Shown here: positions 1 to 64,000 of the stretch, in pieces
How the letters are laid out: the number at the start of each line of letters is the position of its first letter
Position numbering within the stretch: position 1 is the stretch's first letter
Assembly: GCA_964016885.1 (NCBI GenBank)
Contig: OZ024744.1
Location: forward strand, 28,210,001 to 28,274,000
DNA: 64,000 nucleotides
Direction of reading: 5' to 3'
From: Eledone cirrhosa
Taxonomy: Eukaryota
Made by a program: the position numbers and the translations under genes
Notes under the pieces: model-generated
The model's database searches: none
What the model saw: the letters and a program-made list of their open reading frames with translations, nothing else
What the model was told of the DNA's origin: nothing

Positions 1-3000
1 TAACAGCGCTAACAACAACAACAGTGACCATAACAGTGATAACAGCGAGAACAACAACAACAATGACAATAACAGTGATAACAGCGACAACAACAACAAC
101 AACAATGACAGTTGTAACAGCGACAACCACAACAACAGTGTCGATAACAGTGATAACAGCTACAACAACAACAACAACAACAACAACAACAGTGACAATA
201 ACAATTATAACAGCGGCAACAACAACAACAGTGACAATAACAGTTATAACAGCGACAACAACAATAACAGTGACAATAACAGTGATAACAGCGAGAACAA
301 CAACAACCACAGTGACAATAACAGTTATAACAGTGACAACAACAACAACAACAATGACTATAAGAGTGATAACAGCGACAACAACAACAACAACAATGAC
401 AATAACAGTTATAACAGCGACAACAACAACAACAGTGACAATAACAGTTATAACAGCGACAACAGCAGTGACAATAACAGTGATAACAGCCAGAACAACA
501 ACAACAACGATCACGATGACAGTGATAACAGCGAGAACAACAACAACAACAGTGAGAATAACAGTTATAACAGCGACAACAACAACATTCAAAAGAACAG
601 TTATGACAGCGAAAACAACAACAACAACAATGGCAATAACAGTGATTACAGCAACAACAACAGTGACAATAACATTTATAACAGTGACAACAACAACAGT
701 GACAATAACAGTGATAACAGCGACAACAACAACAACAGTGACGATAACAGTGAAAACAGCGACAACAACAACAACAATGACAATAACAGTGATAACAGGG
801 ACAACAATGACAGTAACAGTTATAACAGCGACAACAAAAACAACAACAATGAAAATAACAGTGATAACAGCGACAACAACAACAACAACAACAGTGACAA
901 TAACAGTGATAACAACGACAACAACAACAACAGTGACAATAACAGTTATAACAGGGACAACAACAACAACAGTGACAATAACAGTTATAACAGCGACAAC
1001 AACAACAGTGAAAATAACAGTTATAACAGTGACAACAACAACAACAGTGACAATAACAGTGATAACAGCGACACCAAAAACAACAGTGAGAATAACATTT
1101 ATAACAGTGACAACAACAACAGTGACAATAACAGTGATAACAGCGACAACAACAACAAAAGTGACAATAACAGTGATAACAGCGACAATAACAACAACAA
1201 TGACAATAACAGTGATAACAGCGAGAACAACAACAACAGTGACATTAACAGTTATAACAGCGACAACAACAACAGTGACCAGACCATAACAGTGATAACA
1301 GCAAGAACAACAACATCAACAATGACAATAACAGTGATAACAGCGACAACAACAAGAACAACAACAATGACAGTTGTAACAGCGACAACAACAACAACAA
1401 CAGTGACAATAACAGTTATAACAGCGACAACAACAGTGACAATAACAGTGATAACAGCGACAACAGCAGTGAAAATAACAGTGATAACAGCCAGAACAAC
1501 AACAACGATCACGACGACAGTGATAACAGCGACAACAACAACAACAGTGACAATAACAGTGATAACAGCGACAACAACAACAACAACAGTGACAATTACA
1601 GTCATAACAGCGAGAACAACAACAACAACAGTGACAATAACAGTGATAACAGCGAGAGCAACAACAACAGTGACCATAACAGTGATAACAGCGAGAACAA
1701 CAACAACAATGACAATAACAGTGATAACAGCGACAACAACAACAACAACAATGACAGTTGTAACAGCGACAACCACAGCAACAGTGTCGATAACAGTGAT
1801 AACAGCTACAACAACAACAACAACAACAACAACAACAGTGACAATAACAATTATAACAGCGGCAACAACAACAACAGTGACAATAACAGTTATAACAGCG
1901 ACAACAACAATAACAGTGACAATAACAGTGATAACAGCGAGAACAACAACAACCACAGTGACAATAACAGTTATAACAGTGACAACAACAACAACAATGA
2001 CTATAAGAGTGATAACAGCGACAACAACAACAACAACAATGACAATAACAGTTATAACAGCGACAACAACAACAACGATCACGATGACAGTGATAACAGC
2101 GAGAACAACAACAACAACAGTGAGAATAACAGTTATAACAGCGACAACAACAACATTCAAAAGAACAGTTATGACAGCGAAAACAACAACAACAACAATG
2201 ACAATAACAGTGATTACAGCAACAACAACAGTGACAATAACATTTATAACAGTGACAACAACAACAGTGACAATTACAGTGATAACAGCGACAACAACAA
2301 CAACAGTGACGATAACAGTGAAAACAGCGACAACAACAACAACAATGACAATAACAGTGATAACAGGGACAACAATGACAGTAACAGTTATAACAGCGAC
2401 AACAAAAACAACAACAATGAAAATAACAGTGATAACAGCGACAACAACAACAACAACAACAGTGACAATAACAGTGATAACAGCGACAACAACAACAACA
2501 GTGACAATAACAGTTATAACAGTGACAACAACAACAACAGTGACAATAACAGTTATAACAGCGACAACAACAACAGTGAAAATAACAGTTATAACAGCGA
2601 CAACAACAACAACAGTGACAATAACAGTGATAACAGCGACAACAAAAACAACAGTGAGAATAACATTTATAACAGTGACAACAACAACAGTGACAATAAC
2701 AGTGATAACAGCGACAACAACAACAAAAGTGACAATAACAGTGATAACAGCGACAATAACAACAACAATGACAATAACAGTGATAACAGCGAGAACAACA
2801 ACAACAGTGACATTAACAGTTATAACAGCGACAACAACAACAGTGACCTGACCATAACAGTGATAACAGCAAGAACAACAACATCAACAATGACAATAAC
2901 AGTGATAACAGCGACAACAACAACAACAACAACAATGACAGTTGTAACAGCGACAACAACAACAACAGTGACAATAACAGTTATAACAGCGACAACAACA

Positions 3001-6000
3001 GTGACAATAACAGTGATAACAGCGACAACAACAACAACAATGACAATAACAGCGATAACAGCGTCAACAACAACAACGATCACGACGACAGTCATAACAG
3101 CGACAACAACAACAACAGTGACAATAACAGTGATAACAGCGACAACAACAACAACAGTGACAATTACAGTCATAACAGCGAGAACAACAACAACAGTGAC
3201 AATAACAGTGATAACAGCGAGAGCAACAACAAAAACAACAAAAACAGTGACAATAACAGTTATAACAGCGACAATAACAACAACAATGGTAATAACAGTG
3301 ATAACAGCGCGAACAACAACAACAACAGTGATATAAACAGTTATAACAGCGCTAACAACAACAACAGTGACCATAACAGTGATAACAGCGAGAACAACAA
3401 CAACAATGACAATAACAGTGATAACAGCGACAACAACAACAACAACAACAATGACAGTTGTAACAGCGACAACCACAACAACAGTGACAATAACAGTTAT
3501 AACAGCGACAACAACAGTGACAATAACAGTGATAACAGCGACAACAACAACAACAATGACAATAACAGCGATAACAGCGACGACAACAACAACAGTGACA
3601 ATAACAGTGATAACAGCGATAACAACAACAACAACAACAACAGTGACAATAACAGTGATAACAGCGACAACAACAACAACAACAGTGATAACAGTGAGAA
3701 CAACAACAACAACAGTGACAATAACAGTGATAACAGCGAGAACAACAACAACAACAACAGTGACAATAACAGTTATAACAGCGACAATAACAACAACAAT
3801 GACAATAACAGTGATAACAGCGACAACAACAACAACATCAATGACAATAACAGTGATAAAAGCGACAACAACAACAACAGTGACAATAACAGTGATAACA
3901 GCGACAACAACAACAACATTGACAATAACAGTGATAACAGCGACAACAACAACAACATTGACAATAACAGTGATAACAGCGACAATAACAACAACAATGA
4001 CAATACCAGTGATAACAGCGACACGAACAACAACAACAATGAAAATAACAGTGATAACAGCGAGAACAACAACAACAACAGTGACATTAACAGTAATAAC
4101 AGCGAGTACAACAACAACAACAGTGACCCTAAGAGTGATAACAGCGACAACAACAACAATGACAGTTGTAACAGCGACAACAACAACAACAGTGACAATA
4201 ACAGTTATAACAGCGACAACAACAGTGACAATAACAGTTATAACAGCGATAACAACAACAGTGACAATAACAGTGATAACAGCGACAACAACAACAACAA
4301 TGACAATAACAGCGATAACAGCGACAACAACAACAACAACAGTCACAATAACAGTGATAACAGCGATAACAACAACAACAACAACAGTGACCATAACAGT
4401 TATAACAGCGACAACAACAACAGCGACAACAACAACAAAAACAATTACAATAACAGTGATAACAGTGACAACAACAACAACAACAGTGACAATTAGAGCG
4501 ATAACAGCGACAACAACAACAACAATGACAACAACAGTGATAACAGCGACAACCGCAACAACAACAGTGACAATAACAGTGATAACAGCGACAACAGCAG
4601 TGACAATAACAGTGATAACAGCGACAACAACAACAACAACAACAGTGACAATAACAGTGATAACAGCGACAACAACAACAACAACAATGACAATAACAGT
4701 GATAACAGCGACAACCGCAACAACAACAGTGATATTACAGTTATAACAGCGACAAGAACAGTGACAAAAACAGTGATAACAGCGAGAACAACAACAACAA
4801 CAGTGACAATAACAGTGATAACAGCGAGAACAACAACAACAACAACAGCAGTGACAATAACAGTTATAACAGCGACAATAACAACAACAATGACAATAAC
4901 AGTGATAACAGCGACAACACCAACAACAACATCAATGACAATAACAGTGATAAAAGCGACAACAACAACAACAGTGACAATAACAGTGATAACAGCGACA
5001 ACAACAACATTGACAATAACAGTGATAACAGCGACAACACGAACAACAGTGACATTAACAGTTATAACAGCGACAATAACAACAACAGTGACACTAAGAC
5101 TTATAACAGCGACAACAACTGACGATAACAGTGACAACAGCGACAACAACAGCAACAACAATGACAATAATAGTTATAGCAGCGACAACAACAACAACAA
5201 CAACAACAGTAACTAATAACAGTTATATCACCGACAGCAACAACAACAACAGTGACAATAACAGTTATAACAGCGACAACAACAGTGACAATAACAGTTA
5301 TAACAGCGACAACAGCAGTGACAATAACAGTGATAACAGCCAGAACAACAACAACAACAGTGAGAATAACAGTTATAACAGCGACAACAACAACAGTCAA
5401 AAGAACAGTTATGACAGCGACAACAAAAACAACAGTGACAATAACATTTATAACAGTGACAACAACAACAGTGACAATAACAGTGATAACAGCGACAACA
5501 ACAACAACAGTGACGATAACAGTGAAAACAGCGACAACAACAACAATGACAATAACCGTGATAACAGCGACAAAAATAACAACAATAGTGACAATAACAT
5601 TTATAACAGTGACAACAACAAGTGTGACAATAACAGTGATAACACCGACAACAACAACAGTGACGATAACAGTGAAAACAGCGACGACAACGACAACAAC
5701 AATGACAATAACAGTGATAACAGGGACAACATTGACAGTAACAGTTATAACAGCGACAACAATGACAATAACAGTGATAACAGCGACAACAACAACAACA
5801 GTGACAATAACAGTGATAACAGCGACAACAACAACAACAGTGACAATAACAGTTATAACAGCGAGAACAACAACAACAACAACAACAACAGCAGTGACAA
5901 TAACAGTTATAACAGCGACAATAACAACAACAATGACAGTAACAGTGATAACAGCGACAACACCAACAACAACATCAATGACAATAACAGTGATAAAAGC

Positions 6001-8690
6001 GACAACAACAACAACAGTGACAATAACAGTGATAACAGCGACAACAACAACATTGACAATAACAGTGATAACAGCGACAACAAGAACAAGAGTGACATTA
6101 ACAGTTATAACAGCGACAATAACAACAACAGTGACACCAAAAGTTATAACAGCGACAACAACAACTGACAATAACAGTGACAACAGCGACAACAACAACA
6201 ACAGTGACAATAACAGTGATAACAGCGACAATATCAACAGTGACAATAACCATGATAACAACGACAACAACGACAACAACAGCGACAATAACAGTGATGA
6301 CAACGACGACACCAACAACAACACAACAACGGTGACAATAACAGCGACAACAACAACAGCGACAATAACACTGATGACAACGACAACAACAACAAAGACA
6401 ACAGTGACAATAACAGCGACAACAACAACACCAGTGACAATAACAGTGATAACAGCGACAACAACAACAACAGTGTCGATAACAGTGATAACAGCTACAA
6501 CAACAACAACAACAACAACAACAGTGACAATAACAATTATAACAGCGGCAACAACAACAACAGTGACAATAACAGTTATAACAGCGACAACAACAATAAC
6601 AGTGACAATAACAATGATAACAGCGAGAACAACAACAACCACAGTGACAATAACAGTTATAACAGTGACAACAACAACAATGACAATAAGAGTGATAACA
6701 GCGACAACAACAACAACAACAATGACAATAACAGTTATAACAGCGACAACAACAACAACAGTGACAATAACAGTTATAACAGCGACAACAGCAGTGACAA
6801 TAACAGTGATAACAGCCAGAACAACAACAACAACGATCACGATGACAGTGATAACAGCGAGAACAACAACAACAACAGTGAGAATAACAGTTATAACAGC
6901 GACAACAACAACATTCAAAAGAACAGTTATGACAGCGAAAACAACAACAACAACAATGACAATAACAGTGATTACAGCAACAACAACAACAACAGTGACA
7001 ATAACATTTATAACAGTGACAACAACAACAGTGACAATAACAGTGATAACAGCGACAACAACAACAACAGTGACGATAACAGTGAAAACAGCGACAACAA
7101 CAACAACAAAGACAATAACAGTGATAACAGGGACGACAATGACAGTAACAGTTATAACAGCGACAACAAAAACAACAACAATGAAAATAACAGTGATAAC
7201 AGCGACAACAACAACAACAACAACAACAGTGACAATAACAGTGATAACAGCGACAACAACAACAACAGTGACAATAACAGTTATAACAGGGACAACAACA
7301 ACAACAGTGACAATAACAGTTATAACAGCGACAACAACAACAGTGAAAATAACAGTTATAACAGCGACAACAACAACAACAGTGACAATAACAGTGATAA
7401 CAGCGACAACAAAAACAACAGTGAGAATAACATTTATAACAGTGACAACAACAACAGTGACAATAACAGTGATAACAGCGACAACAACAACAAAAGTGAC
7501 AATAACAGTGATAACAGCGACAATAACAACAATGACAATAACAGTGATAACAGCGAGAACAACAACAACAGTGACATTAACAGTTATAACAGCGACAACA
7601 ACAACAGTGACCAGACCATAACAGTGATAACAGCAAGAACAACAACATCAACAATGACAATAACAGTGATAACAGCGACAACAACAACAACAACAATGAC
7701 AGTTGTAACAGCGACAACAACAACAGTGACAATAACAGTTATAACAGCGACAACAACAGTGACAATAACAGTGATAACAGCGACAACAACAACAACAATG
7801 ACAATAACAGCGATAACAGCGTCAACAACAACAACAACAACAGTGACCATAACAGTTATAACAGCGACAACAACAACAGCGACAACAACAACAAAAACAA
7901 TGACAATAACAGTGATGACAGCGACAACAACAACAACAACAGTGACAATAACAGCGATAACAGCGACAACCGCAACAACAACAGTGACAATAACAGTGAT
8001 AACAGCGACAACAGCAGTGAAAATAACAGTGATAACAGCCAGAACAACAACAACGATCACGACGACAGTGATAACAGCGACAACAACAACAACAGTGACA
8101 ATAACAGTGATAACAGCGACAACAACAACAACAACAGTGACAATTACAGTCATAACAGCGAGAACAACAACAACAACAGTGACAATAACAGTGATAACAG
8201 CGAGAGCAACAACAAAAACAACAAAAACAGTGACAATAACAGTTATAACAGCGACAATAACAACAACAATGACAATAACAGTGATAACAGCGACAACAAC
8301 AACAACAACAACATCAATGACAATAACAGTGATAAAAGCGAGAACAACAACAGCAGTGACAATAACAGTGATAACAGCGACAACAACAACAACATTGACA
8401 ATAACAGTGATAACAGCGACAACAACAACAACAACAGTGACAATAACAGTGATAACAGCCACAATAACAACAACAATGACAATACCAGTGATAACAGCGA
8501 CACGAACAACAACAACAATGACAATAACAGTGATAACAGCGACAACCGCAACAACAACAGTGACAATAACAGTGATAACAGCGACAACAGCAGTGACAAT
8601 AACAGTGATAACAGCCAGAACAACAACAACAACGATCACGATGACAGTGATAACAGCGACAACAACAACAACAACAACAACAACAACAGT
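1..8690 (+). repeat. AAC-derived satellite array, left arm (A/C-rich strand on +); monomer GTGACAATAACAGT(G/T)ATAACAGCG(ACA)n
   Basis: Uninterrupted tandem copies of the 24-bp core plus an (ACA)2-10 tail from base 1 to 8690. The array is open at the window start. A 39-bp consensus monomer has 20 A, 9 C, 6 G and 4 T. Confidence 0.98.
24..2860 (+). repeat. Left-arm higher-order repeat (~1.6 kb period); copies at ~24-1290 and ~1670-2860, and a third at ~6465-7625
   Basis: The same ordered rare variants occur in each copy: GTGTCGATAAC, GCGGCAAC, ACGATCACGATGAC, TTCAAAAGAACAGTTATGAC, ACAGGGAC, GACC(A/T)GACCATAAC. ORF starts 1292, 2860 and 7624 mark equivalent positions. Confidence 0.88.
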
Positions 8691-8710
8691 TAAAAATGTT
8701 ATTGTCATTG
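8680..8710. other. Strand-inversion junction within the satellite array
   Basis: ...ACAACAACAGT|TAAAAATGTTATTGTCATTG...: abrupt switch from AAC-rich to GTT-rich + strand with no foreign spacer DNA. Confidence 0.97.
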
Positions 8711-9119
8711 TTGTTGTTGTTGTCGCTGTTATCACTGTTATTGTCACTGTTGTTGTTGTTGTCGCTGTCATAACTGTTCTTTTCACTGTTGTTGTTGTCG
8801 CTGTTATAACTGTTATTGTCACTGTTGTTGTTATTGTCGCTGTTATCACTGTTATTTTCACAGTTGTTGTCGCTGTTATCACTGTTATTGTCATTGTTGT
8901 TGTTGTCGCTGTTATAACTGTTATTGTCATTGTTGTTGTTGTCGCTGTTATCACTGTTATTGTCATTGTTGTTGTTGTCGCTATTATCACTGTTATTGTC
9001 ACTGTTGTTGTTATTGTCGCTGTTATCACTGTTATTTTCACAGTTGTTGTCGCTGTTATCACTGTTATTTTCACAGTTGTTGTCGCTGTTATCACTGTTA
9101 TTGTCATTGTTGTTGTTGT

Positions 9120-10030
9120 TGCTGTCGGTGTTATAACTGTTATTAGTTACTGTTGTTGTTGTTGTTCTCGCTGTTATAAGTTTTATTGTCATTGTTGTTG
9201 TTGTCGATGTTATAACTGTTATTGTCATTGTTGTTGTTGTTGTTGTCGCTGTTATAACTGTTATTGTCACTATTGTTGTTGTTCTCGCTGTTATCACTGT
9301 TACTGTCACTGTTGTTGTTGTCGCTGTTTTAACTGTTATTGTCATTGTTGTTGTAGTCGCAGTTATATATGTTATTGACACTGTTGTTGTTGTTGTTCTC
9401 GCTGTTATCACTGTTATTATCACTGTTGTTGTTGTTGTTGTCGCTGTTATCACTGTTATTGTTCTGTTGTTGGTGTCGCTTTTATAACTGTTATTACCAT
9501 TGTTGTTGTTGTTGTCTCTGTTATCACTGTTATTGTCACTGTTGTTGTTGTTGTTGCGGTTAGTGTCACTCTTGTTGTTTTGTTGTCGTTGTCGTCGTTG
9601 TCATCACTGTTATTGTCGCTGTTGTTGTTGTTGTCGTTGTTATCATGCTTGTTGTCACTGTTGTTGTTGTTGTGGTTGTTGTTGTTATCACTGTTATTGT
9701 CACTGTTGTCTTTGTTGTTGTCGTTGTCATGACTGTTATTGTCGATGTTCTTGTTGTTGTTGTTGTTGCTGTTATTGTCACTGTTGTTGTTTTGTTGTTG
9801 TTGTCGTCGTTGTCATCACTGTTATCGTCGCTGTTGTCGTTGTTGTCCTTGTTATCATGGTTATTGTCACTGTTGTTGTCGCTGTTATCACTGTTATTGT
9901 CACTGTTGTTGTTGTTCTCGCTGTTATCACTGTTATTGTCACTGTTGTTGTGTTGTTGTCGCTGTAATAACTGTTATTGTCAAAGTTGTTGTTGTCGCTG
10001 TTATAACTGTTATTGTCACTGTTATTGTGT
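9120..10030. repeat. Diverged landmark module of the right-arm HOR (first copy)
   Basis: Carries GGTGTTATAACTGTTATTAGTTAC, GTAGTCGCAGTTATATATG, GCTTTTATAACTGTTATTACC, GTTAGTGTCACTCTT, ATCATGCTT, GTCATGAC and GTCCTTGTTATCATGG. It recurs whole or in part more than 12 times along the right arm. Confidence 0.88.
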
Positions 10031-13000
10031 TGTCGCTGTTACCACTGTTATTGTCTTTGTTGTTGTTGTGGTCGCTGTTATCACTGTTATTGTCACTGTT
10101 ATTGTCCTTGTCGCTGTTACCACTGTTATTGTCTTTGTTGTTGTTGTGGTCGCTGTTATCACTGTTATTGTCACTGTTGTTGTTGTCGCTGTTATCACTG
10201 TTATTGCCACTGTTGTTGTTGTTGTCGCTGTTATCACTGTTATTGTCACTGTTGTTGTTGTTGTTGTCGCTGTTATCACTGTTATTGTCACTGTTGTTGT
10301 TGTCGCTGTTATCACTGTTATTGCCACTGTTGCTGTTGTTGTCGCTGTTATCACTGTTATTGTCACTGTTGTTGTTGTTGTCGCTGTTACCACTGTTATT
10401 GTCACTGTTGTTGTTGTCGCTGTTATCACTGTTATTGTCACTGTTGCTGTTGTTGTCGCTGTTATCACTGTTATTGTCATTGTTGTTGTTGTTGTCGCGG
10501 TTATCTCTGTTATTGTCATTGTTGTTGTTGTTGTTGTTGTCGCTGTTATCATTGTTATTGTCATTGTTGTCGCTGTTATCACTGTTATTGTCACTGTTGT
10601 TGTCGCTGTTACAACTGTCCTTGTTGTTGTTGTTATTGTCGCTGTTATCACTGTTATTGTCATTGTTGTTGTTATTGTCGCTGTTATCACTGTTATTGTA
10701 ACTGTTGTTGTTGTCGCTGTTATCACTGTTATTGTAACTGTTGTTGTTGTCGCTGTTATAACTGTTATTGTCACTGTTTATGTTGTCGCTGTTATAACTG
10801 TTATTGTCACTGTTGTTGTTGTCCCTGTTATAACTGTTATTGTCACTGTTGTTGTTGTCGCTGTTATCATTGTTATTGTCACTGTTGTTGTTGTCGCTGT
10901 TATCACTGTTATTGTCATTGTTGTTGTTGTTGTCGCTGTTATAACTGTTACTGTCATTGTTGTTGTTGTTGTCGCTGTTATCACTGTTATTGTCACTGTT
11001 GTTGTCGCTGTTATCACTGTTATTGTCACTGTTGCTGTTGTTGTCGCTGTTATCACTGTTATTGTCATTGTTGTTGTTGTTGTCGCGGTTATCACTGTTA
11101 TTGTCATTGTTGTTGTTGTTGTTCTCGCTGTTATCACTGTTATTGTCACTGTTGTTGTCGCTGTTATCACTGTTATTGTCACTGTTTTTGTCGCTGTTAC
11201 AACTGTCATTGTTGTTGTTGTTATTGTCGCTGTTATCACTGTTATTGTCATTGTTGTTATTGTTGTTGTCGCTGTTATAACTGTTATTCTCACTGTTGTT
11301 TTTGTTGTTGCCGCTGATATCACTCTTATTGTCACTGTTGTTGTTGTCTCTGTTATAACTGTTATTGTCACTGTTGTTGTTGTCACTGTTATCACTGTTA
11401 TTGTCACTGTTGTTGTTCTCGCTGTTATCACTGTTATTGTCACAGTTGTTGTTGTCGCTGTTATCACTGTTATTGTCATTGTTGTTGTTGCCGCTGTTAT
11501 AACTGTTATTGTCATTGTTGTTGTTGTTGTCGCTGTTATCACTGTTATTGTCATTGTTGTTGTTGTCGCTATTATCACTGTTATTGTCACTGTTGTTGTT
11601 ATTGTCTCTGTTATTTTCACAGTTGTTGTCGCTGTTCTCACTGATATTGTCATTGTTGTTGTTGTTGTCGCCGTTATCACTGTTATTGTCAATGTTTTTG
11701 TTGTTGTTGTCGGTGTTATAACTGTTATTAGTTACTGTTGTTGTTCTCGCTGTTATAACTATTATTGTCATTGTTGTTGTTGTCGCTGTTATAACTGTTA
11801 TTGTCAGTGTTGTTGTTGTTGTTGTCGCTGTTATAAGTGTTATTGTCATTATTGTTGTTGTTGTCGCCGTTATAACTGTTATTGTCACTGTTGTTGTTGT
11901 CGCTGTTTTAACTGTTATGGTCATTGTTGTTGTAGTCGCAGTTATATATGTTATTGACACTGTTGTTGTTGTTGTTATCGCTGTTATCACTGTTATTATT
12001 ACTGTTGTTGTTGTTGTTGTTGTCGCTGTTATCACTGTTATTGTTCTGTTGTTGTTGTCGCTTTTATAACTGTTATTACCATTGTTGTTGTTGTTGTTGT
12101 ATCTGTTATCACTGTTATTGTCACTGTTGTTGTTGTTGTCGCTGTTATCACTGTTGTTGTCACTGGTGTTGTTGTTGTTGCTGTTAGTGTCACTCTTGTT
12201 GTTTTGTTGTCGTTGTCCTCGTTGTCATCACTGTTATTGTCGCTGTTGTTGTTGTTGTTGTCGTTGTTATCATGCTTGTTGTCACTGTTGTTGTTGTTGT
12301 GTTTGTTCTTGTTGTTATCACTGTTATTGTCACTGTTGTCTTTGTTGTTGTCGTTGTCATGACTGTTATTGTCGCTGTTGTTGTTGTCGCTGTTATAACT
12401 GTTATTGTCAAAGTTGTTGTTGTCGCTGTTATAACTGTTATTGTCACTGTTATTGTGTTGTCGCTGTTACCACTGTTATTGTCTTTGTTGTTGTTGTTCT
12501 CGCTGTTATCACTGTTATTGTCATTGTTGTTGTTGTCGCTGTTATCACTTATATTAGTCATTGTTGTTGTTGTTGTCGCTGTTATAACTGTTATTGTCAC
12601 TGATGTTGTTGTTGTCGCTGTTATAACTGTTATTGTCAAAGTTGTTGTTGTTGTCGCTGTTATAACTGTTATTGTCACTGTTATTGTTCTTGTCGCTGTT
12701 ACCACTGTTATTGTCTTTGTTGTTGTTGTGGTCGCTGTTATCACTGTTATTGTCACTGTTGTTGTTGTCGCTGTTATCACTGTTATTGCCACTGTTGTTG
12801 TTGTCGCTGTTATCACTGTTATTGTCACTGTTGTTGTTGTTGTTGTCGCTGTTATCACTGTTATTGTCACTGTTGTTGTCGCTGTTATCACTGTTATTGT
12901 CACTGTTTTTGTTGTTGTTGATGTTATCACCACTGTTGTAGTTGTTGTCGCTGTTATAACTGTTATTGTCACTGTTGTTGTTGTTGCTGTCGCTGTTATC

Positions 13001-14149: not shown

Positions 14150-14181
14150 GTTGTTCTGGCTGTTACCACTGTTATTGTCAC

Positions 14182-14212
<31 letters not shown>

Positions 14213-51938: not shown

Positions 51939-53719
51939 CATCACTGTTATTGTCGCTGTTGTTGTTGTTGTCGCTGTTATTTTCACTGTTGATGTTTTGT
52001 TGTTGTTGTTGTCGTCGTTGTCATCACTGTTATTGTCGCTGTTGTTGTCGTTGTTGTCGTTGTTATCATGGTTATTGTCACTGTTGTTGTTGTTGTTATC
52101 ACTGTTATAGTCACTGTTGTTGTTGTCGCTGTTATCACTGTTATTGTCACTGTTGTTGTTGTTCTCGCTGTTATCACTGTTATTGTCACTGTTGTTGTGT
52201 TGTTGCGGCTGTTATAACTGTTATTGTCAAAGTTGTTGTTGTCGCTGTTATAACTGTTATTGTCACTGTTGTTATTGTTGTCATTGTTATCACTGTTATT
52301 GTCACTATTGTTGTTGTCGCTGTTATCACAGTTATTGTCACTGTTGTTGTTGTTCTCGCTGTTATCACTGTTATTGTCACTGTTGTTGTGTTGTTGTCGC
52401 TGTTATAACTGTTATTGTCAAAGTTGTTGTTGTCGCTGTTATAACTGTTATTGTCACTGTTATTGTTGTTGTCGCTGTTACCACTGTTATTGTCCTTGTT
52501 GTTGTTGTTCTCGCTGTTATCACTGTTATTGTCATTGTTGTTGTTGTCGCTGTTATCACTTATATTGTCATTGTTGTTGTTGTTGTCGCTGTTATAACTG
52601 TTATTGTCACTGATTTTGTTGTTGTCGCTGTTATAACTGTTATTGTCAAAGTTGTTGTTGTTGTCTCTGTTATCACTGTTATTGTCACTGTTGTTGTTAT
52701 TGTCGCTGTTATCACTGTTATTGTCACTGGTGTTGTTGTTGTCGCTGTTATTGTCACTCTTATTGTTTTGTTGTTGTTGTCGTTGTTATCATGCTTATTG
52801 TCACTGTTGTTGTTGTTGTGGTTGTTGTTGTTGTTATCATTGTTATTGTCACTGTTGTCTTTGTTGTTGTCGTTGTCATGACTGTTATTGTCGCTGTTGT
52901 TGTTGTTGTTGTTCACGCTGTTATTGTCACTGTTGTTGTTTTGTTGTTGTTGTCGTCGTTGTTATCACTGTTATCGTCGCTGTTGTTGTCGTTGTTGTCC
53001 TTGTTATCATGGTTATTGTCACTGTTGTTGTCGCTGTTATCACTGTTATTGTCACTGTTGTTGTTCTCGCTGTTATAACTGTTATTGTCACTGTTGTTGT
53101 TGTTGTTGTCATTGTTATCACTGTTATTGTCACTATTGTTGTTGTCACTGTTATTGTTCTTGTCGCTGTTACCACAGTTATTTTCATTGTTGTTGTTGTT
53201 GTTCTCTCTGTTATCACTGTTATTGTCACTGTTGTTGTGGTTCTCGCTGTTATAACTGTTATTGTGACTGTTGTTGTTGTTGTCGCTGTTATAACTGTTA
53301 TTGTCATTGTTATTGTCGCTGTTATCACTGTTATTGACACTGTTGTTGTTGTTGGTCTCGCTGTTATCACTGTTATTGTCACTGTTGCTGTTGTTGTCGC
53401 TGTAATAACTGTTATTGTCACTGTTGTTGTTGCTGTTGTCGCTGTCATAACTCTTATTGTCACTGTTGTTGTTGTTGTTGTTGTTGTCGTTGTTATCACT
53501 GTTATTGTCATTATTGTTGTTCTCGCTGTTATCACTGGTATTGACACTGTTGTTGTTGTTGTCGCTGTTATAACTGTTATTGTCTCTGTTGATGTTGTTG
53601 TTGTCGCTGTTATAACTGTTATTGTCACTGTTGCTGTTGTCGTTGTTATAAATCTTATTGTCACTGTTTTTGTTGTTGTTGTCGTTGTTATCACTGTTAT
53701 TGTCATTATTGTTGTTGGC

Positions 53720-53914
53720 GCTGTTATCACTGTTATTGTCATTGTTGTTGTTGTTTTCGCTGTTATCACTGTTATTGTCATTGTTGTTGTTGTTGTCGCT
53801 GTTATCACTGTTATTGTCATTGTTGTTGTTGTTGTCGCTGTTATCACTGTTATTGTCATTGTTGTTGTTGTTGTCGCTGTTATCACTGTTATTGTCATTG
53901 TTGTTGTTGTTGTC
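53720..53914. repeat. Five tandem 39-bp monomers, four of them identical (GCTGTTATCACTGTTATTGTCATTGTTGTTGTTGTTGTC)
   Basis: Units start at 53720, 53759, 53798, 53837 and 53876. Confidence 0.9.
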
Positions 53915-56900
53915 GCTGTTATCACAGTTATTGTCACTGTTGTTGTGTTGTTCTCGCTGTTATATCTGTTATTGTCACTGTTGTTGTTGTTGTTGCTGTC
54001 GCTGTTATCACTGTTATTGTCATTGTTGTTGTTGTTGTTGTACTCGCTGTTATCACTGTTATTGTCACTGTTGTTGTCGATGTTATCACTGTTATTTTCA
54101 TTGTTGTTTTTGTTGTCACTGTTATCACTGTTATTGTCATTGTTGTTGTTGTTGTCGCTGTTATCACTGTTATTGTCACTGTTGTTGTTGTTGTCCCTGT
54201 TATCACTGTTATTGTCACTGTTGTTGTTGTCACTGTTATTTCTAAATGTTATTTTCACTGTTGTTGTTGTCGCTGTTATAACTGTTATTGTCACTGTTGT
54301 TGTTGTCGCTGTTATAACTGTTAATGTCACTGTTTTTGTTGTTGTCGCTGTTATAACTGTTATTGTCACTGTTGTTGTTGTGTTGTCGTTGTTATCACTG
54401 TTATTGTCACTGTTGTTGTTGTTGTCTCTGTTATCACTGTTATTGTCATTGTTGTTATTGTTGTTGTCGCTGTTATAACTGTTATTGTCACTGTTGTCGT
54501 TGTCCCTGTTATAACTGTTATTGTCACTGTTGTTGTTGTCGCTGTTATCACTGTTATTGTCACTGTTGTTGTCGCTGTTATAACTGTTATTGTCATTGTT
54601 GTTGTTGTTGTTGTCGCTGTTATAACTGTTATTGTCATTGTTGTTGTCGCTGTTATCAATGTTATTATCACTGTTGTTGTTGTTATCGCTGTTATCACTG
54701 TTATTTTCACTGTTGTTGTTGTCACTGTTATAAATGTTATTGTCACTGTTGTTGTTGTTGTCGCTGTTATAACTGTTATTGTCACTGTCGTTTTTGTTGT
54801 CGCTCTTATCACTGTTATTGTCACTGTTGTTGTTGTTGTTGTCGCTGTTATAACTGTTATTGTCATTGTTGTTGTTGTCGCTGTTATAACTGTTATTGTC
54901 ACTGTTGTTGTTGTTGTTGTCGCTGTTATTGTCACTGTTGATGTTTTGTTGTTGTTGTTGTTGTCGCTGTTATCACTGTTATTGTTCTGTTGTTGTTGTC
55001 GCAGTTATAACTGTTATTGCCATTGTTGTTGTTGTTGTTGTCTCTGTTGTCACTGTTATTGTCACTGTTGTTGTTGTTGCTGTTATAACTGTTATTGTTA
55101 TTGGTGTTTTTGTCGCTGTTATGACTGTTATTGTCATTATTGTTGTTGTCGTTGTTATCACTGTTAATGTCATTGTTGTTGTTGTTGTTTTTGTCGCTGT
55201 TATTACTGTTATTGTCACCGTGGTTGTTGTTGTTCTCGCTGTTATGACAGTTATTGTCACTGTTGTTGTTGTTGTTGTCGATGTTATTGTCAATGTTGTT
55301 GTTTTGTTGTTGTTGTTGTCGTCGCTGTTATAACTGTTATTGCCATTGTTGTTGTTGTTGTTGTCTCTGTTATCACTGTTATTGTTACTGTTCTTGTTGT
55401 CGCTGTTATAACTGATATTGTTATTGGTGTTGTTGTCGCTGTAATTACTGTTATTGTCATTCTTGTTGTTGTCGCTGTTATCACTGTTATTTTCATTGTT
55501 GTTGTTGTTTTTGTCGCTGATATCACTGTTATTGTAACTGTTGTTGTTGTTGTCACTGTTATAAATGTTATTGTCACTGTTGTTTTTGTTGTCGCTGTTA
55601 TCACTGTTATTGTCACTGTTGTTGTTGTCGCTCTTATAACTGTTATTGTCACTGTTTATGTTGTCGCTGTTATAACTGTTATTGTCACTGTTGTTGTTGT
55701 CCCTGTTATAACTGTTATTGTCACTGTTGTTGTTGTCGTCGCTGTTATCACTGTCATTGTCACTGTTGTTGTCGCTGTTATCACTGTTATTGTCATTGTT
55801 GTTGTTGTCGCTGTTATAACTGTTACTGTCATTGTTGTTGTTGTTGTCGCTGTTATCACTGTTATTTTCATTGTTGTTGTTGTTGTCGCTGTTATCACTG
55901 TTATTGTCACTGTTTTGTTGTTGTTGTTGTCGCTGTTATCACTGTTATTGTCACTTTTGTTGTTGTTGTCACTGTTATAAATGTTATTGTCACTGTTGTT
56001 GTTGTTGTCGCTGTTATCACTGTTATTGTCACTGTTGTTGTTGTTGTCGCTGTCATAACTGTTCTTTTCACTGTTGTTGTTGTGGCTGTTATAACTGTTA
56101 TTGTCACTGTTGTTGTTGTTGCTGTTATCACTGTTATTGTCACAGTTGTTGTTGTCGCTGTTATCACTGTTATTGTCATTGTTGTTGTTGTCGCTGTTAT
56201 AACTGTTATTGTCATTGTTGTTGTTGTTGTCGCTGTTATCACTGTTATTGTCATTGTTGTTGTTGTCGCTATTATCACTGTTATAGCCACTGTTGTTGTT
56301 ATTGTCGCTGTTATCACTGTTATTGTCGCAGTTGTTGTCGCTGTTATCACTGATATTGTCATTGTTGTTGTTGTTGTTGTCGCTGTTATCACTGTTATTG
56401 TCATTGTTGTTGTTGTTGCTGTCGGTGTTATAACTGTTATTAGTTATTGTTGTTGTTGTTGTTCTCGCTGTTATAAATATTATTGTCATTGTTGTTGTTG
56501 TTGTTGTCGCTGTTATAACTGTTAATGTCACTGTTGTTGTTTTGTTGTTGTTGTCGCTTTTATAACTGTTATTACCATTGTTGTTGTTGTTGTTGTCTCT
56601 GTTATCACTGTTATTGCCACTGTTGTTGTTGTCGCTGTTATCACTGTTATTGTCACTGGTGTTGTTGTTGTTGCTGTTAGTGTCACTCTTGTTGTTTTGT
56701 TGTCGTTGTCGTCGTTGTCATCACTGTTATTGTCGCTGTTGTTGTTGTTGTCGTTGTTATCATGCTTGTCGTCACTGTTGTTGTTGTTATCACTGTTATT
56801 GTCACTGTTGTCTTTGTTGTTGTCGTTGTCATGATTGTTATTGTCGCTGTTGTTGTTGTTGTTGTCGCTGTTATTGTCACTGTTGTTGTTTTGTTGTTGT

Positions 56901-57349
56901 TGTCGTCGTTGTCATCACTGTTATCGTCGCTGTTGTCCTTGTTATCATGGTTATTGTCACTGTTGTTGTCGCTGTTATCACTGTTATTGTCACTGTTGTT
57001 GTCGCTGTTATAACTGTTATTGTCACTGTTGTTGTTGTTGTTGTCATTGTTATCACTGTTATTGTCACTATTGTTGTTGTCGCTGTTATCACTGTTATTG
57101 TCACTGTTGTTGTTGTTCTCGCTGTTATCACTGTTATTGTCACTGTTGTTGTGTTGTTGTCGCTGTTATAACTGTTATTGTCAAAGTTGTTGTTGTCGCT
57201 GTTATAACTGTTATTGTCACTGTTATTGTGTTGTCGCTGTTACCACTGTTATTGTCTTTGTTGTTGTTGTTCTCGCTGTTATCACTGTTATTGTCATTGT
57301 TGTTGTTGTCGCTGTTATCACTTATATTGTCATTGTTGTTGTTGTCGCT

Positions 57350-58149
57350 GTTATAACTGTTATTGTCACTGTTATTGTTCTTGTCGCTGTTACCACTGTT
57401 ATTGCCTTTGTTGTTGTTGTGGTGGCTGTTATCACTGTTATTGTCACTGTTGTTGTTGTTGTCGCTGTTATCACTGTTATTGCCACTGTTGTTGTTGTTG
57501 TCGCTGTTATCACTGTTATTGCCACTGTTGTTGTTGTTGTCGCTGTTACCACTGTTATTGCCACTGTTGTTGTTGTTGTCGCTGTTATCACTGTTATTGT
57601 CACTGTTGTTGTTGTCGCTGTTATCACTGTTATTGTCACTGTTGTTTTTGTTGTCGTCGCTGTTATCACTGTTATTGTCACTGTTGCTGTTGTTGTCGCT
57701 GTTATCACTGTTATTGACATTGTTGTTGTTATTATCGCTGTTATCACTGTTATTGTCATTGTTGTTGTTGTTGTTCTCGCTGTTATCACTGTTATTGTCA
57801 CTGTTGTTGTCGCTGTTATAACTGTTATTGTCACAGTTGCTGTTGTCGGTGTTATAACTGTTATTAGTTACTGTTGTTGTTGTTTTTGTTGTTCTTGCTG
57901 TTATAACTATTATTGTCATTGTTGTTGTTGTTGCTGTCGGTGTTATTACTGTTATTGCCATTGTTGTTGTTGTTGTTGTTGTCTCTGTTATCACTGTTAT
58001 TGTCACTGTTGTTGTTGTCGCTGTTATTGTCACTGTTGTTGTTGTTGTTGTTGTCGCTGTAATCACTGTTATTGTTCTGTTGTTGTTGTCGCTGTTATAA
58101 CTGTTAATGTCACTGTTGTTGTTGTTCTCGCTGTTATCACTGTTATTGT

Positions 58150-58182
<33 letters not shown>

Positions 58183-61100
58183 CGCTGTTATCATTGTTAT
58201 TGTCATTGTTGTTGTCGCTGTTATCACTGTTATTGTCACTGTTGTTGTCGCTGTTACAACTGTCATTGTTGTTGCTGTTATTGTCGCTGTTATCACAGTT
58301 ATTGTCATTGTTGTTGTTATTGTCGCTGTTATCACTGTTATTGTCACTGTTGTTGTCGCTGTTATCACTGTTATTGTCACTGTTGTTTTTGTTGTCACTG
58401 TTATAAATGTTATTGTCACTGTTGTTTTTGTTGTCGCTGTTATCACTGTTATTGTCACTGTTGTTGTCGCTGTTATAACTGTTATTGTCACTGTTTATGT
58501 TGTCGCTGTTATAACTGTTATTGTCACTGTTGTTGTTGTTGTCCCTGTTATAACTGTTATTGTCACTGTTGTTGTTGTTGTTGTCGCTGTTATCGCTGTT
58601 ATTGTCACTGTTGTTGTTGTTGTCGCTGTCATAACTGTTCTTTTCACTGTTGTTGTTGTTGTTATCGCTGTTATAACTGTCATTGTCACTGTTGTTGTGG
58701 CTGTTATAACTGTTATTGTCACTATTGTTGTTGTTGTCGCTGTTATCACTGTTATTGTCATTGTTGTTGTCGCTGTTATAACTGTTATTCTCATTGTTGT
58801 TTTTGTTGTCGCTGTTATAACTGTTATTGTCACTGTTGTTGTTGTTGCTGTCGGTGTTATAACTGTTATTAGTTACTGTTGTTGTTGTTGTTGTCGCTGT
58901 TATCACTGTTATTGTCATTGTTGATGTTGTTGTTGTCGCTGTTATCACTGTTATTGCTCTGTTGTTGTTGCCGCTGTTATAACAGTTATTACCATTGTTG
59001 TTGTTGTTGTTGTCGCTGTTACAACTGTTATTTTCACTGTTGTTGTCGCTGTTATCACTGTTATTGTCACTGTTGTTGTTGTCGCTGTTATAACTGTTAT
59101 TGTCACTGTTGTTGTTGTTGTCGCTGTTATAACTGTTAATATCACTGTGGTTGTTGTTGTTCTCGCTGTTATCACTGTTATTGTCATTGTTGTTGTTGTC
59201 GATGTTATCACTGTTATTGTCAGTGTTGTTGTTGTTGTTCTCGCTGTTATCACTGTTATTGACTCTGTTGATGTTGTTGTTGTCTCTGTTATCACTGTTA
59301 TTGTCACTGTTGTTGTCGCTGTTATCACTGTCATTGCCACTGTTGTTGTTGTTGTTGTCGCTGTTATAACTGTTAATATCACTGTGGTTGTTGTTGTTCT
59401 CGCTGTTATCACTGTTATTGTCATTGTTGTTGTTGTTGTCGCTGTTATCACTGTTATTGTCAGTGTTGTTGTTGTTGTTCTCGTGGTTATCACTGTTATT
59501 GTCACTGTTGTTGTTGTTCTCGCTGTTATCACTGTTATTGTCTCTGTTGATGTTGTTGTTGTCGCTGTTATCACTGTTATTGTCACTGTTCTTGTTGTCG
59601 CTGTTATCACTGTTATTGCCACTGTTGCTGTTGTTGTCGCTGTTATCACTGTTATTGTCACTGTTGTTGTCGCTGTTATCACTGTTATTGTCACTGTTGT
59701 TATTGTTGTTGTTGCTGTTATCATTGTTATTGTCACTGTTGTAGTTGTTGTCGCTGTTATAACTGTTATTGTCACTGTTGTTGTTGTTGCTGTCGCTGTT
59801 ATCACTGTTATTGTCATCGTTGCTGTTGTACTCGCTGTTATCACTGTTATTGTCACTGTTGTTATTGTTGTTGTTGCTGTTATCATTGTTATTGTCACTG
59901 TTGTAGTTGTTGTGGCTGTTATCACTGTTATTGTCACTGTTGTTGTCACTGTTATCACTGTTATTTTCATTGTTGTTGTTGTTGTTCTCTCTGTTATCAC
60001 TGTTATTGTCACTGTTATTGTCATTGTTGTTGTTGTTGTCGCTGTTATCACTGTTATTGTTGCTGTTGTCGCTGTCATAACTCTTATTGTCACTGTTGTT
60101 GTTGTCGTTGTTATCACTGTTATTGTCATTATTGTTGTTCTCGCTGTTATCACTGGTATTGACACTGTTGTTGTTGTTGTCGCTGTTATAACTGTTATTG
60201 TCTCTGTTGATGTTGTTGTTGTCGCTGTTATAACTGTTATTGTCACTATTGTTGTTGTCGCTGTTATAACTCTTATTGTCACTGTTGTTGTTGTTGTCGT
60301 CGTTGTTATCACTGTTATTGTCATTATTGTTGTTGTCGCTGTTAACACTGTTATTGTCATTGTTGTTGTTGTTGTCGCTGTTATAACTGTTATTGTCACC
60401 ATTGCTTTTGTTGTTGTCGCTCTTATCACTCTTATTGTCATTGTTGTTGTTGTTCTCGCTGCTATCCCTGTTATTGTCATTGTTGTTGTTGTTGTACTCG
60501 CTGTTATCACTGTTATTGTCATTGTTGTTGTTCTTGTTGCTGTTATCACTGTTATTGTCACTGTTTTTGTTGTTGTCGCTATTATCACTGTTATCGTCAC
60601 TGTTGTGTTTGTTGTTGTCGCTGTTATCATTGTTATTTTCATTGTTTTTGTTGTTGTTCTCGCATTTATCACTGTTATTGTCAGTGTTGTTGTTGTTGTT
60701 CTCGCTGTTATCACTGTCGTCGTCACTGTTGTTGTTGTTGTCGCTGTTATAACTGTTATTGTGACTGTTGTTGTTGTTGTTGTCGCTGTTATAACTGTTA
60801 TTGTCATTGTTGTTGTTGTCGCTGTTATCACTGTTATTGACACTGTTGTTGCTGTTGTTCTCGCTGTTATCACTGTTATTGTCACTGTTGTTGTTGTTGT
60901 TCTCGCTGTTACCACTGTTATTGACACTGTTGTTGTCGTTGTCGTTGTTATCACTGTTATTGTCGTTATTGTTATTGTCGCTGTTATCACTGTTATTGTC
61001 ATTGTTGTTGTTGTTGTCGCTGTTATCACTGTTATTGTCACTGTTGTTGTTGTTGTCGCTTCTATAACTGTTATTGTCACTATTGCTGTTGTTGTTTTCG

Positions 61101-63540
61101 CTGTTATCACTCTTATTGTCATTGTTGTTGTTGTTGCTGTTATCACTGTTATTGTCACTGTTGTTGTTGTCGCTGTTATCACTGTTATTGCCACTGTTGC
61201 TGTTGTTGTCGTTGTTATCACTGTTATTGTCATTGTTGTTTTTGTTGTCGCTGTTATCACTGTTATTGTCACTGTTGTTGTCGCTGTTATAACTGTTATT
61301 GTCACTGTTGTTGTTGTTGTCGGTGTTATAACTGTTATTAGTTAGTTGTTGTTGTTGTTCTTGCTGTTATAACTATTATTGTCATTGTTGTTGTTGTTGC
61401 TGTCGGAGTTATTACTGTTATTGCCATTGTTGTTGTTGTTGTTGTCGCTGTTATAACTGTTATTGTCACTGTTATTGTTCTTGTCGCTGTTACCACTGTT
61501 ATTGCCTTTGTTGTTGTTGTTGTCGCTGTTATAACTGTTATTGTCACTGTTATTGTTCTTGTCGCTGTTACCACTGTTATTGCCTTTGTTGTTGTTGTGG
61601 TCGCTGTTATCACTGTTATTGTCACTGTTGTTGTTGTTGTCGCTGTTATCACTGTTATTGCCACTGTTGTTGTTGTTGTCGCTGTTATCACTGTTATTGC
61701 CACTGTTGTTGTTGTTGTCGCTGTTACCACTGTTATTGCCACTGTTATTGTTGTTGTCGCTGTTATCACTGTTATTGTCACTGTTGTTGTTGTCGCTGTT
61801 ATCACTGTTATTGTCACTGTTGTTGTTGTTGTCGTCGCTGTTATCACTGTTATTGTCACTGTTGCTGTTGTTGTCGCTGTTATCACTGTTATTGACATTG
61901 TTGTTGTTGTTATCGCTGTTATCACTGTTATTGTCATTGTTGTTGTTGTTGTTCTCGCTGTTATCACTGTTATTTTCACTGTTGTTATCGCTGTTATAAC
62001 TGTTATTGTCACTGTTGCTGTTGTCGGTGTTATAACTGTTATTAGTTACTGTTGTTGTTGTTTTTGTTGTTCCTGCTGTTATAACTATTATTGTCATTGT
62101 TGTTGTTGTTGCTGTCGGTGTTATTACTGTTATTGCCATTGTTGTTGTTGTTGTTGTTTTCTCTGTTATCACTGTTATTGTCACTATTGTTGTTGTCGCT
62201 GTTATTGTCACTGTTGTTGTTGTTGTTGTTGTTGTCGCTGTTTTCATTGTTATTGTCATTGTTGTTGTCGCTGTTATCACTGTTATTGTCACTGTTGTTG
62301 TTGTTGTCCCTGTTATAACTGTTATTGTCACTGTTGTTGTTGTTGTTGTTGTCGTCGCTGTTATCGCTGTTATTGTCACTGTTGTTGTTGTTGTTGTCGC
62401 TGTCAAAACTGTTCTTTTCACTGTTGTTGTTGTCGCTGTTATAACTGTTATTGTCACTGTTGTTGTGGCTGTTATAACTGTTATTGTCACTATTGTTGTT
62501 GTCGCTGTTATCACTGTTATTGTCATTGTTGTTGTCGCTGTTATAACTGTTATTCTCATTGTTGTTTTTGTTGTCGCTGTTATAACTGTTATTGTCACTG
62601 TTGTTGTTGTTGCTGTCGGTGTTATAACTGTTATTAGTTACTGTTGTTGTTGTTGTCGCTGTTATCACTGTTATTGTCATTGTTGTTGTTGTTGTTGTTG
62701 TTGTTGTCGCTGTTATCACTGTTATTGCTCTGTTGTTGTTGCCGCTGTTATAACAGTTATTACCATTGTTGTTGTTGTTGTTGTTGTCTCTGTTATCACT
62801 GTTATTGTCACTGTTGTTGTTGTCGTTGTTATCACTGTTATTGCCACTGTTGTTGTTGTTGTTGTCGCTGTTACAACTGTTATTTTCACTGTTGTTGTCG
62901 CTGTTATCACTGTTATTGTCACTGTTGTTGTCGCTGTTATAACTGTTATTGTCACTGTTGTTGTTGTTGTCGCTGTTATAACTGTTAATATCACTGTGGT
63001 TGTTGTTGTTCTCGCTGTTATCACTGTTATTGTCATTGTTGTTGTTGTCGATGTTATCACTGTTATTGTCAGTGTTGTTGTTGTTGTTCTCGCTGTTATC
63101 ACTGTTATTGACTCTGTTGGTGTTGTTGTTGTCGCTGTTATCACTGTTATTGTCACTGTTGTTGTTGTCGCTGTTATCACTGTTATTGTCACTGTTCTTG
63201 TTGTCGCTGTTATCACTGTTATTGTCACTGTTGTTGTCGCTGTTATCACTGTTATTGTCACTGTTGTCATTGTTGTTGTTGCTGTTATCATTGTTATTGT
63301 CACTGTTGTAGTTGTTCTCGCTGTTATAACTGTTATTGTCACTGTTGTTGTTGTTGCTGTCGCTGTTATCACTGACTTTGTCATCGTTGCTGTTGTACTC
63401 GCTGTTATCACTGTTATTGTTGTTGTTGTTGTGGCTGTTATCACTGTTATTGTCACTGTTGTTGTCGCTGTTATCACTGTTATTTTCATTGTTGTTGTTG
63501 TTGTTCTCTCTGTTATCACTGTTATTGTCAATGTTATTGT
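57350..63540. repeat. ~3.8-4.2 kb offset duplication (~57350-60000 vs ~61530-63540) with internal deletions
   Basis: Paired ORFs 57363/61541, 58879/62644 and 59151/63000. Shared variants: ATTGCCTTTG, ATTGACATTG, GTTAATATCACTGTGG, ATTGACTCTG. Confidence 0.75.
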
Positions 63541-64000
63541 CACTGTTGTTGTTGTTCTCGCTGTTATAACTGTTATTGTCATTGTTGTTGTTGTTGTTGT
63601 CGCTGTTATAACTGTTATTGTCACTGTTGTTGTTGTTGTTCTCGCTGTTATCACTCTTATTGTCAATATTGTTGTTGTTGTCGCCGTTATAACTGTTATT
63701 GTCACTGTTGTTGTTGTCGCTGTTTTAACTGTTATTGTCATTGTTGTTGTAGTCGCAGTTATATATGTTATTGACACTGTTGTTGTTGTTCTCGCTGTTA
63801 TCACTGTTATTATCACTGTTGTTGTTGTTGTTGTCGCTGTTATCACTGTTATTGTTCTGTTGTTGGTGTCGCTTTTATAACTGTTATTACCATTGTTGTT
63901 GTTGTTGTTGTTGTCTCTGTTATCACTGTTATTGTCACTGTTGTTGTTGTTGTCGCTGTTATCACTGTTATTGTCACAGGTGTTGTTGTTGTTGCTGTTA

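What the first reader, a model, noticed from the sequence alone, without database searches (positions are those of the whole stretch)
1..64000. A microsatellite turned complex satellite: fixed 24-bp core, variable (AAC)n tail and multi-level HORs
Seen: every monomer has a length-invariant core and a tail of 2-10 triplets, so the array has no fixed period. Tail-length strings are nevertheless copied faithfully between HOR copies, like a barcode. Periodicity is nested at 3 bp, 9-12 bp, ~36-39 bp, ~1.6-2.5 kb, ~4-5 kb and ~18.7 kb, with an older ~47 kb offset. Established: nested HORs with occasional strand switches are typical of centromeric and pericentromeric satellites such as primate alpha satellite and Arabidopsis CEN178, but those have near-fixed monomer lengths. 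Inference: this is a satellite family I do not recognise, and a candidate centromeric or heterochromatic array born from (AAC)n.
Basis: partly seen in the sequence, partly recalled or inferred. Interest (0 to 1): 0.7.

Follow-up and report, generated by a model that had tools for sequence, protein, structure and literature searches.

The report
Octopus satellite grown from AAC microsatellite
This is part of a single 0.8-megabase repeat array on one octopus chromosome, made of about 20,000 short units with a fixed core and a variable (AAC)n tail, which likely grew from a simple microsatellite by repeated block duplication and is likely ordinary satellite DNA rather than the centromere repeat.

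Summary
The anatomy is real: a length-stable 24-27-bp core, a tail of 2-10 triplets (1,440 of 1,604 intervals) and one strand switch in the window. The window lies inside one uninterrupted 799-kb array of about 19,900 monomers in an octopus genome (mitochondrial COX1 100% identical to Eledone cirrhosa). Of 10,207 genome-wide core matches, 10,205 lie in this array, so it is not a pan-centromeric satellite. The 'HORs' are nested tandem duplications of 2.0-3.2 copies whose period changes along the array. The 18.7-kb level is one 99.4-99.9% identical pair; the 47-kb offset is one 710-bp match. The 'barcode' is copied because the duplications are young: tails change about 13 times faster per tail than bases do per site, mostly by one triplet. 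Every core triplet is 0-2 transitions from AAC, supporting a microsatellite origin. Fifteen of 40 samples along this chromosome are wholly tandem repeat, so large arrays are common here. It works like human HSat2/3 (nested tandem repeats from a simple repeat) without being homologous. New member of a known kind; interest 0.3.

The parts
1..8688 (+). End of the 220-kb inverted middle domain (D2) of the array; about 216 monomers, AAC on the + strand
8689..8697 (.). Strand-switch junction (tail to tail), no gap, about 2 bp of overlap; the minus-strand monomer ends in the rare ATT variant of subunit 2
8697..64000 (-). Part of the 207-kb right domain (D3); about 1,390 monomers of consensus AGT GAC AAT AAC / AGT GAT AAC / AGC GAC (AAC)n read on the minus strand
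14435..33236 (-). Copy 1 of the youngest large tandem duplication (offset 18,649-18,802 bp)
33237..51980 (-). Copy 2 of the 18.7-kb duplication; aligned pieces 99.85%, 99.72% and 99.38% identical to copy 1
469..3030 (+). Small older duplication (469-1,465 vs 2,040-3,030, offset 1,571, 98.4%), one source of the 1.6-kb period
9832..10529 (-). The only retained match at the 47-kb offset (to 57,030-57,730; 710 bp, 92.5%)

Best explanation
This is a single-locus, non-coding satellite array of about 19,900 roughly 39-bp monomers that likely arose in place from an imperfect (AAC)n microsatellite and likely grew without a function by repeated in-register tandem duplication. Inferred order: transitions broke an AAC run into short frozen blocks plus one run of about 4 pure triplets, and that 39-bp stretch became the unit of amplification. 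Shown: blocks of 2-99 kb were then duplicated again and again, almost always once each, which nests the periods and copies whatever tail lengths a block carried. Shown: after a duplication the tails drift by mostly single-triplet steps, about 13 times faster per tail than a base changes. Inferred: a 220-kb middle domain entered in inverted orientation, possibly as an inserted copy of a block from the left edge, and each domain then homogenised on its own.
For: Single locus: 10,205 of 10,207 matches to an 18-nt core pattern and all 1,999 and all 5,515 matches to two longer patterns lie at C28:27.627-28.426 Mb; the same tool lists several contigs for another repeat. AAC origin: 9 of 9 core triplets are 0-2 transitions from AAC; 87% of tail triplets are AAC; the first 5 of 5 matched cores at the 5' edge have AAC where the mature core has AGC, against 0-10% per 20-kb bin elsewhere, and an imperfect AAC run lies about 100 bp outside. 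Duplication: 59 matches of at least 1.5 kb and 97% cover 50-58% of each domain; 13 of 13 tandem ones have 2.0-3.2 copies; the top period differs among the 20 regions scanned. Slippage: in 38 duplicate pairs, 84 of 5,205 aligned monomers differ in length, 63 of the 74 triplet changes by one step; 148 core substitutions in 140.5 kb; ratio 13.5. That rate times core divergence (3.9-5.1%) predicts 0.5-1.0 steps per tail; with the step sizes seen this gives a variance of about 1.0-1.9, against 1.5-2.2 observed (my arithmetic). Background: 15 of 40 10-kb samples of this chromosome are wholly tandem repeat, about 12 families; a second, unrelated AAC-rich 45-bp array starts 1.5 Mb away.
Against: Absence of function is inferred, not shown. 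The array is unusual among its neighbours: TRF indels 11% against 0-3% in the 15 fully repeated samples. It has no insertion over 800 kb (largest core-to-core distance 121 bp) although both flanks hold LINE-like debris; this fits youth or fast turnover but also constraint. Mean tail length is 3.8-4.1 in all three separately homogenised domains, which drift allows but a length constraint would also give. The microsatellite at the edge is separated from the array by about 100 bp of other sequence and could be a chance neighbour. No reads were laid on the array, so the duplications and junctions rest on one assembly.
Confidence: 0.78

Rival explanations
1. The array is the chromosome-specific centromere or its pericentromeric heterochromatin.
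For: 0.8 Mb, no insertions, blocks of homogenised variants and strand switches. It sits 20% along a 136.5-Mb contig, a possible place for a centromere. In-register kb duplications are the known mutation mode of Arabidopsis centromeres (bioRxiv 2025.06.02.657473, abstract and section 11).
Against: One locus only. The chromosome carries many other arrays (15 of 40 samples). A 16-bp satellite fills 3 of 3 samples from 128 to 134 Mb and also occurs on C3, which makes it a better shared candidate. Duplication structure is not specific to centromeres (maize knobs, PMC13011684, search listing only).
Confidence: 0.08
2. The youngest duplications and the inversion are assembly artefacts, such as two haplotypes joined in tandem or mis-oriented pieces.
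For: The 18.7-kb copies are 99.4-99.9% alike. Only one assembly was examined.
Against: No N in 874 kb. Duplicate identities form a continuum from 97 to 99.9%. Only 4 isolated non-triplet indels in 213.6 kb of aligned pairs. The three domains have distinct variant pools that change at the junctions. Three public runs hold 41-45% of the sampled words, but they may be the source sample and are not independent.
Confidence: 0.08
3. The array is or was a coding repeat for an Asn/Asp/Ser-rich protein (it reads SDNNSDNSDNNNN in the AAC frame).
For: Stop-free stretches of up to 1,408 codons in the window.
Against: The frame of the AAC triplets shifts about 8 times in 8.7 kb and about 130 times in 55 kb. 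Core substitutions fall 44/51/53 on codon positions 1/2/3, with no third-position excess. Open frames are expected of AAC-rich DNA.
Confidence: 0.02

Closest known systems
Human satellites 2 and 3 (HSat2/HSat3) with nested tandem repeats (PMC4022460, passages; bioRxiv 10.1101/2021.07.12.452052, passages)
   Same: Derived from a simple repeat; irregular unit length; kb-scale periods called nested tandem repeats that vary along an array and expand locally; chromosome-specific arrays (a 280-kb subfamily confined to chr17); strand switches.
   Different: No sequence relation (AAC triplet, not CATTC). Here there is a clear 39-bp monomer with one slipping tail, a single 0.8-Mb locus, only two strand switches and periods of 2-3 copies. 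Position relative to the centromere is unknown.
Arabidopsis centromeric satellite mutation spectrum (bioRxiv 10.1101/2025.06.02.657473, abstract and section 11)
   Same: Kilobase in-register indels of whole units build homogenised blocks and long-distance similarity without long-range recombination.
   Different: That satellite is on all centromeres, with point changes driven largely by gene conversion; here conversion-like patches are few (9 patches against 79 isolated substitutions and 35 isolated tail changes) and unit length varies.
Barley trinucleotide satellite arrays (AAC, AAG, ACT, ATC) (PMC9241371, passages)
   Same: Long arrays based on AAC.
   Different: Reported as trinucleotide arrays in the pericentric regions of all chromosomes; here a complex monomer at one locus. 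Barley CENH3 peaks go with AGAGGG and cereba.
Satellite monomers built from shorter sub-repeats (review PMC5615363, passages)
   Same: Cycles of duplication and divergence of a short unit giving a longer monomer; birth at one locus followed by local amplification.
   Different: Here one sub-repeat still slips, so the monomer has not settled on one length.

Membership tests
HSat2/3-type simple-repeat-derived complex satellite | Derived from an ancestral simple repeat | tested here: met
   9 of 9 core triplets 0-2 transitions from AAC; 87% of tail triplets AAC
HSat2/3-type simple-repeat-derived complex satellite | Irregular unit length | tested here: met
   tail SD 1.2-1.5 triplets; TRF indels 11%
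HSat2/3-type simple-repeat-derived complex satellite | kb-scale nested periods that vary along the array | tested here: met
HSat2/3 (the family itself) | CATTC-derived sequence | tested here: not met
   consensus is AAC-derived; an analogue, not a member
HSat2/3-type simple-repeat-derived complex satellite | Pericentromeric heterochromatin | not testable with these tools
   no chromatin or cytological data
Alpha-satellite-type HOR array | One multi-monomer unit repeated many times in tandem | tested here: not met
   13 of 13 tandem matches of at least 1.5 kb and 97% have 2.0-3.2 copies
Alpha-satellite-type HOR array | Monomers of similar length | tested here: not met
   intervals mostly 30-51 bp
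Pan-centromeric satellite | Present on every chromosome | tested here: not met
   10,205 of 10,207 matches in one array; single hits on C4 and C13
Pan-centromeric or chromosome-specific centromeric satellite | CENP-A occupancy | not testable with these tools
   no ChIP or CUT&Tag data

The most novel reading that the evidence does not exclude
The array is a young, chromosome-specific octopus centromere born in place from an AAC microsatellite, with its seed and proto-monomers still at one edge; it would show that a kinetochore can sit on a satellite with no fixed period, and would be the first sequence handle on a cephalopod centromere that my searches could find.
Probability: 0.07. Interest if true: 0.7.

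Novelty: new member of a known kind. Interest (0 to 1): 0.3.

Why it matters
As read here it matters modestly. It is a clean, fully assembled example of a microsatellite turning into a satellite, with an internal measure of slippage against substitution (about 13 to 1 for 2-6-triplet runs) and a ready chromosome-specific FISH marker for an octopus, a group for which my searches found no satellite catalogue. It also warns that nested periods in a dot plot need not be HORs or point to a centromere. If it proved centromeric, it would be a variable-period centromere in a lineage whose centromeres appear undescribed.

Tried and rejected
Gene conversion as the main editor of the barcode. BLAST-based counts suggested it: 368 of 5,704 paired monomers differed in length, differences tracked site heterozygosity with r = 0.97, and tail and core changes co-occurred 153 times against 23 in permutations. 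One search showed that BLAST had aligned monomers out of register around whole-monomer indels and at alignment ends. A monomer-level realignment with trimmed ends removed the signal: 7 co-occurrences against 2.9 (highest permutation 7), and 10 and 5 differences at the two polymorphic sites against a mean of 5.5. The rates (part 1; part 1), 54 and 57 are therefore discarded, including the apparent 3-5-fold CpG excess; the CpG sites show 10 and 7 changes, which is inconclusive. Mirror symmetry around the strand switch: none; the best inverted matches are about 600 bp at 88%. Special similarity between the D3 end and the D1 start beyond the junction monomer: none (ranks 295 and 322 of 528). Expression: no RNA holder listed. 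An insect-type telomere pattern found nothing. One search failed with a script error and was rerun. Earlier-findings look-ups near this place and by words returned nothing. Dfam, Repbase and nt are not available here, and I read no supplements; repeat tables in supplements of octopus genome papers could already list this unit.

Full report
Observation. The whole window is one tandem repeat of modal period 39 bp, AAC-rich on the + strand to about 8,690 and on the - strand after it. A gap-free 24-bp core is found 1,606 times, and 1,440 of 1,604 intervals leave a tail of 2-10 whole triplets. The monomer reads AGT GAC AAT AAC / AGT GAT AAC / AGC GAC (AAC)n: three sub-units of the form AGY GAY (AAY)k with k = 2, 1 and n. 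Two core sites are strongly polymorphic (site 2 G/A, site 16 G/T). Tail-length strings repeat far beyond chance: 205 identical in a row at lag 466, against 7-8 in five shuffles.

Where it lies. The window is G000:C28:28,210,001-28,274,000 on a 136.5-Mb contig of a 3.0-Gb genome. The genome's mitochondrial COX1 is 100% identical over 490 residues to a record named Eledone cirrhosa, and the next hits are other octopods at 94-98%, so the animal is an octopus. I read 874 kb around the window. The array runs from about 27,626,900 to 28,426,000 without N, as three domains: minus 372 kb (D1), plus 220 kb (D2), minus 207 kb (D3), with 9,353, 5,443 and 5,132 monomers. No core-to-core distance exceeds 121 bp, so nothing is inserted. 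One 10-kb flank stretch on each side holds broken reading frames that I recognise from memory as Tx1-like LINE proteins (no family search run).

One locus. An 18-nt core pattern has 10,207 matches in the genome; 10,205 are in this array, and the other two are single hits on C4 and C13. Two longer patterns gave 1,999 and 5,515 matches, all inside the array. The tool warns that repeat counts can be lower bounds, but it listed C2, C8, C10 and C20 for another repeat. Unassembled arrays cannot be excluded.

The periods are duplications. In the window the 18.7-kb level is one pair of adjacent copies, 99.4-99.9% identical. Shorter periods come from partial matches of at most 1.8 kb, and the 47-kb offset from one 710-bp match at 92.5%. 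Across the array, 59 matches of at least 1.5 kb and 97% have offsets from 1.9 to 98.6 kb and cover 50-58% of each domain. The 13 that are tandem have 2.0-3.2 copies. The leading period differs among the 20 regions scanned. This is what the human centromere paper calls nested tandem repeats expanding locally, as distinct from HORs (bioRxiv 2021.07.12.452052, passages). Simulations from Arabidopsis mutation-accumulation lines show that in-register kb indels alone give such blocks (bioRxiv 2025.06.02.657473, section 11).

Why the barcode is faithful. I aligned 38 duplicate pairs (those of the 59 whose second copy was not already used) monomer by monomer. Of 5,205 aligned monomers, 84 differ in length; 74 differ by whole triplets, 63 of them by one. 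The cores carry 148 substitutions in 140.5 kb. A tail thus changes about 13.5 times as often as a base, which by my recall is ordinary for short triplet runs. A block 0.2% diverged should keep about 97% of its tails. Core divergence from consensus, leaving out the three most polymorphic sites, is 3.9-5.1%. That gives 0.5-1.0 steps per tail and, with the step sizes seen, a variance of about 1.0-1.9, against 1.5-2.2 observed. Neutral slippage from one ancestor of about 4 units is therefore roughly enough. An earlier BLAST-based analysis pointed to gene conversion; it was an alignment artefact and is withdrawn.

Origin. All nine core triplets are 0-2 transitions from AAC. At the 5' edge the first five matched cores carry AAC in place of AGC, against 0-10% per 20-kb bin elsewhere, and a 340-bp imperfect AAC/AGC/AAT run lies about 100 bp outside. 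This fits birth in place, although the run could be a chance neighbour. A second AAC-rich array with another core and a 45-bp period begins at 29.97 Mb; its pattern has 203 matches, all on one strand, and the first 100 listed are all at that place. The route from AAC to satellite has thus probably been taken more than once on this chromosome.

The inversion. The three domains have separate variant pools. D2 is closest to a block at D1 360-364 kb, near the left edge (part 3, 60). The D3 end and the D1 start both stop in the rare ATT form of sub-unit 2 (2-3% of monomers in D1 and D2) and overlap by 9 bp with one change each from that form. I infer that D2 may be an inverted copy inserted between D3 and D1 and then expanded. 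Wider similarity between those two ends was not found, so this step is tentative.

Background and centromere. Fifteen of 40 10-kb samples at preset positions along C28 are wholly tandem repeat, about 12 families of 16-290 bp. Large locus-specific arrays are therefore common here; what sets this one apart is length variation (11% indels against 0-3%). A 16-bp satellite fills the samples at 128, 131.5 and 134 Mb and also lies on C3, which makes it a better shared centromeric or subtelomeric candidate. No chromatin data were available.

Comparison and novelty. The closest working analogue is human HSat2/3: simple-repeat origin, irregular units, kb periods, chromosome-specific arrays (PMC4022460, passages). 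It is not a member, since the sequence is unrelated. Barley has long AAC arrays near all centromeres (PMC9241371, passages). Longer monomers arising from shorter ones is standard theory (PMC5615363, passages). Five paper searches (listings only) showed no octopus satellite catalogue and no description of this repeat. Passages of two cephalopod genome papers named no satellite (PMC13218726; bioRxiv 2025.08.29.672809). Dfam, Repbase, nt and supplements were not seen.

Verdict. It is a real, apparently undescribed, single-locus satellite of a known kind, explained by microsatellite decay, slippage and nested duplication. Interest 0.3; a chromosome-specific centromere remains possible at about 7-8%.

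Noticed in passing
L139-L141 (C28:128.0, 131.5 and 134.0 Mb); C3:184.77 Mb onward: A 16-bp satellite, rich in TTAAG and GGGG, fills 3 of 3 samples over 6 Mb near the end of C28 and also forms an array on C3; 2,339 matches of five perfect units, on both strands. A better candidate for a shared centromeric or subtelomeric repeat.
   Followed up: partly
L100 and L017 (C28:29.97 Mb to about 30.03 Mb): A second AAC-rich array, period 45 bp, 7% indels, different core, 203 matches on one strand.
   Followed up: partly
L103-L142 (C28, 40 samples): 15 of 40 10-kb samples are entirely minisatellite-type arrays of about 12 families; 6 of the first 7 samples (2-23 Mb) are among them, while 58-96.5 Mb has none in 12 samples.
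   Followed up: no
C28 about 27.67-27.84 Mb (D1 156-226 kb vs 232-325 kb): An older duplication at offsets of 76-99 kb, with younger duplications inside one copy.
   Followed up: no
L018 (C28:31.0 Mb); C2, C8, C10, C20: A 76-80-bp CT-rich minisatellite is spread over several contigs (2,130 matches), unlike the two AAC arrays.
   Followed up: no
G000:C2:345.14, 115.16, 115.18, 206.20 and 163.79 Mb: Nuclear copies of mitochondrial COX1, some with stops.
   Followed up: no
window, core site 16: The T allele (about 30% of monomers) makes an 8-bp palindrome inside the core; no excess mutation was seen at this site.
   Followed up: partly
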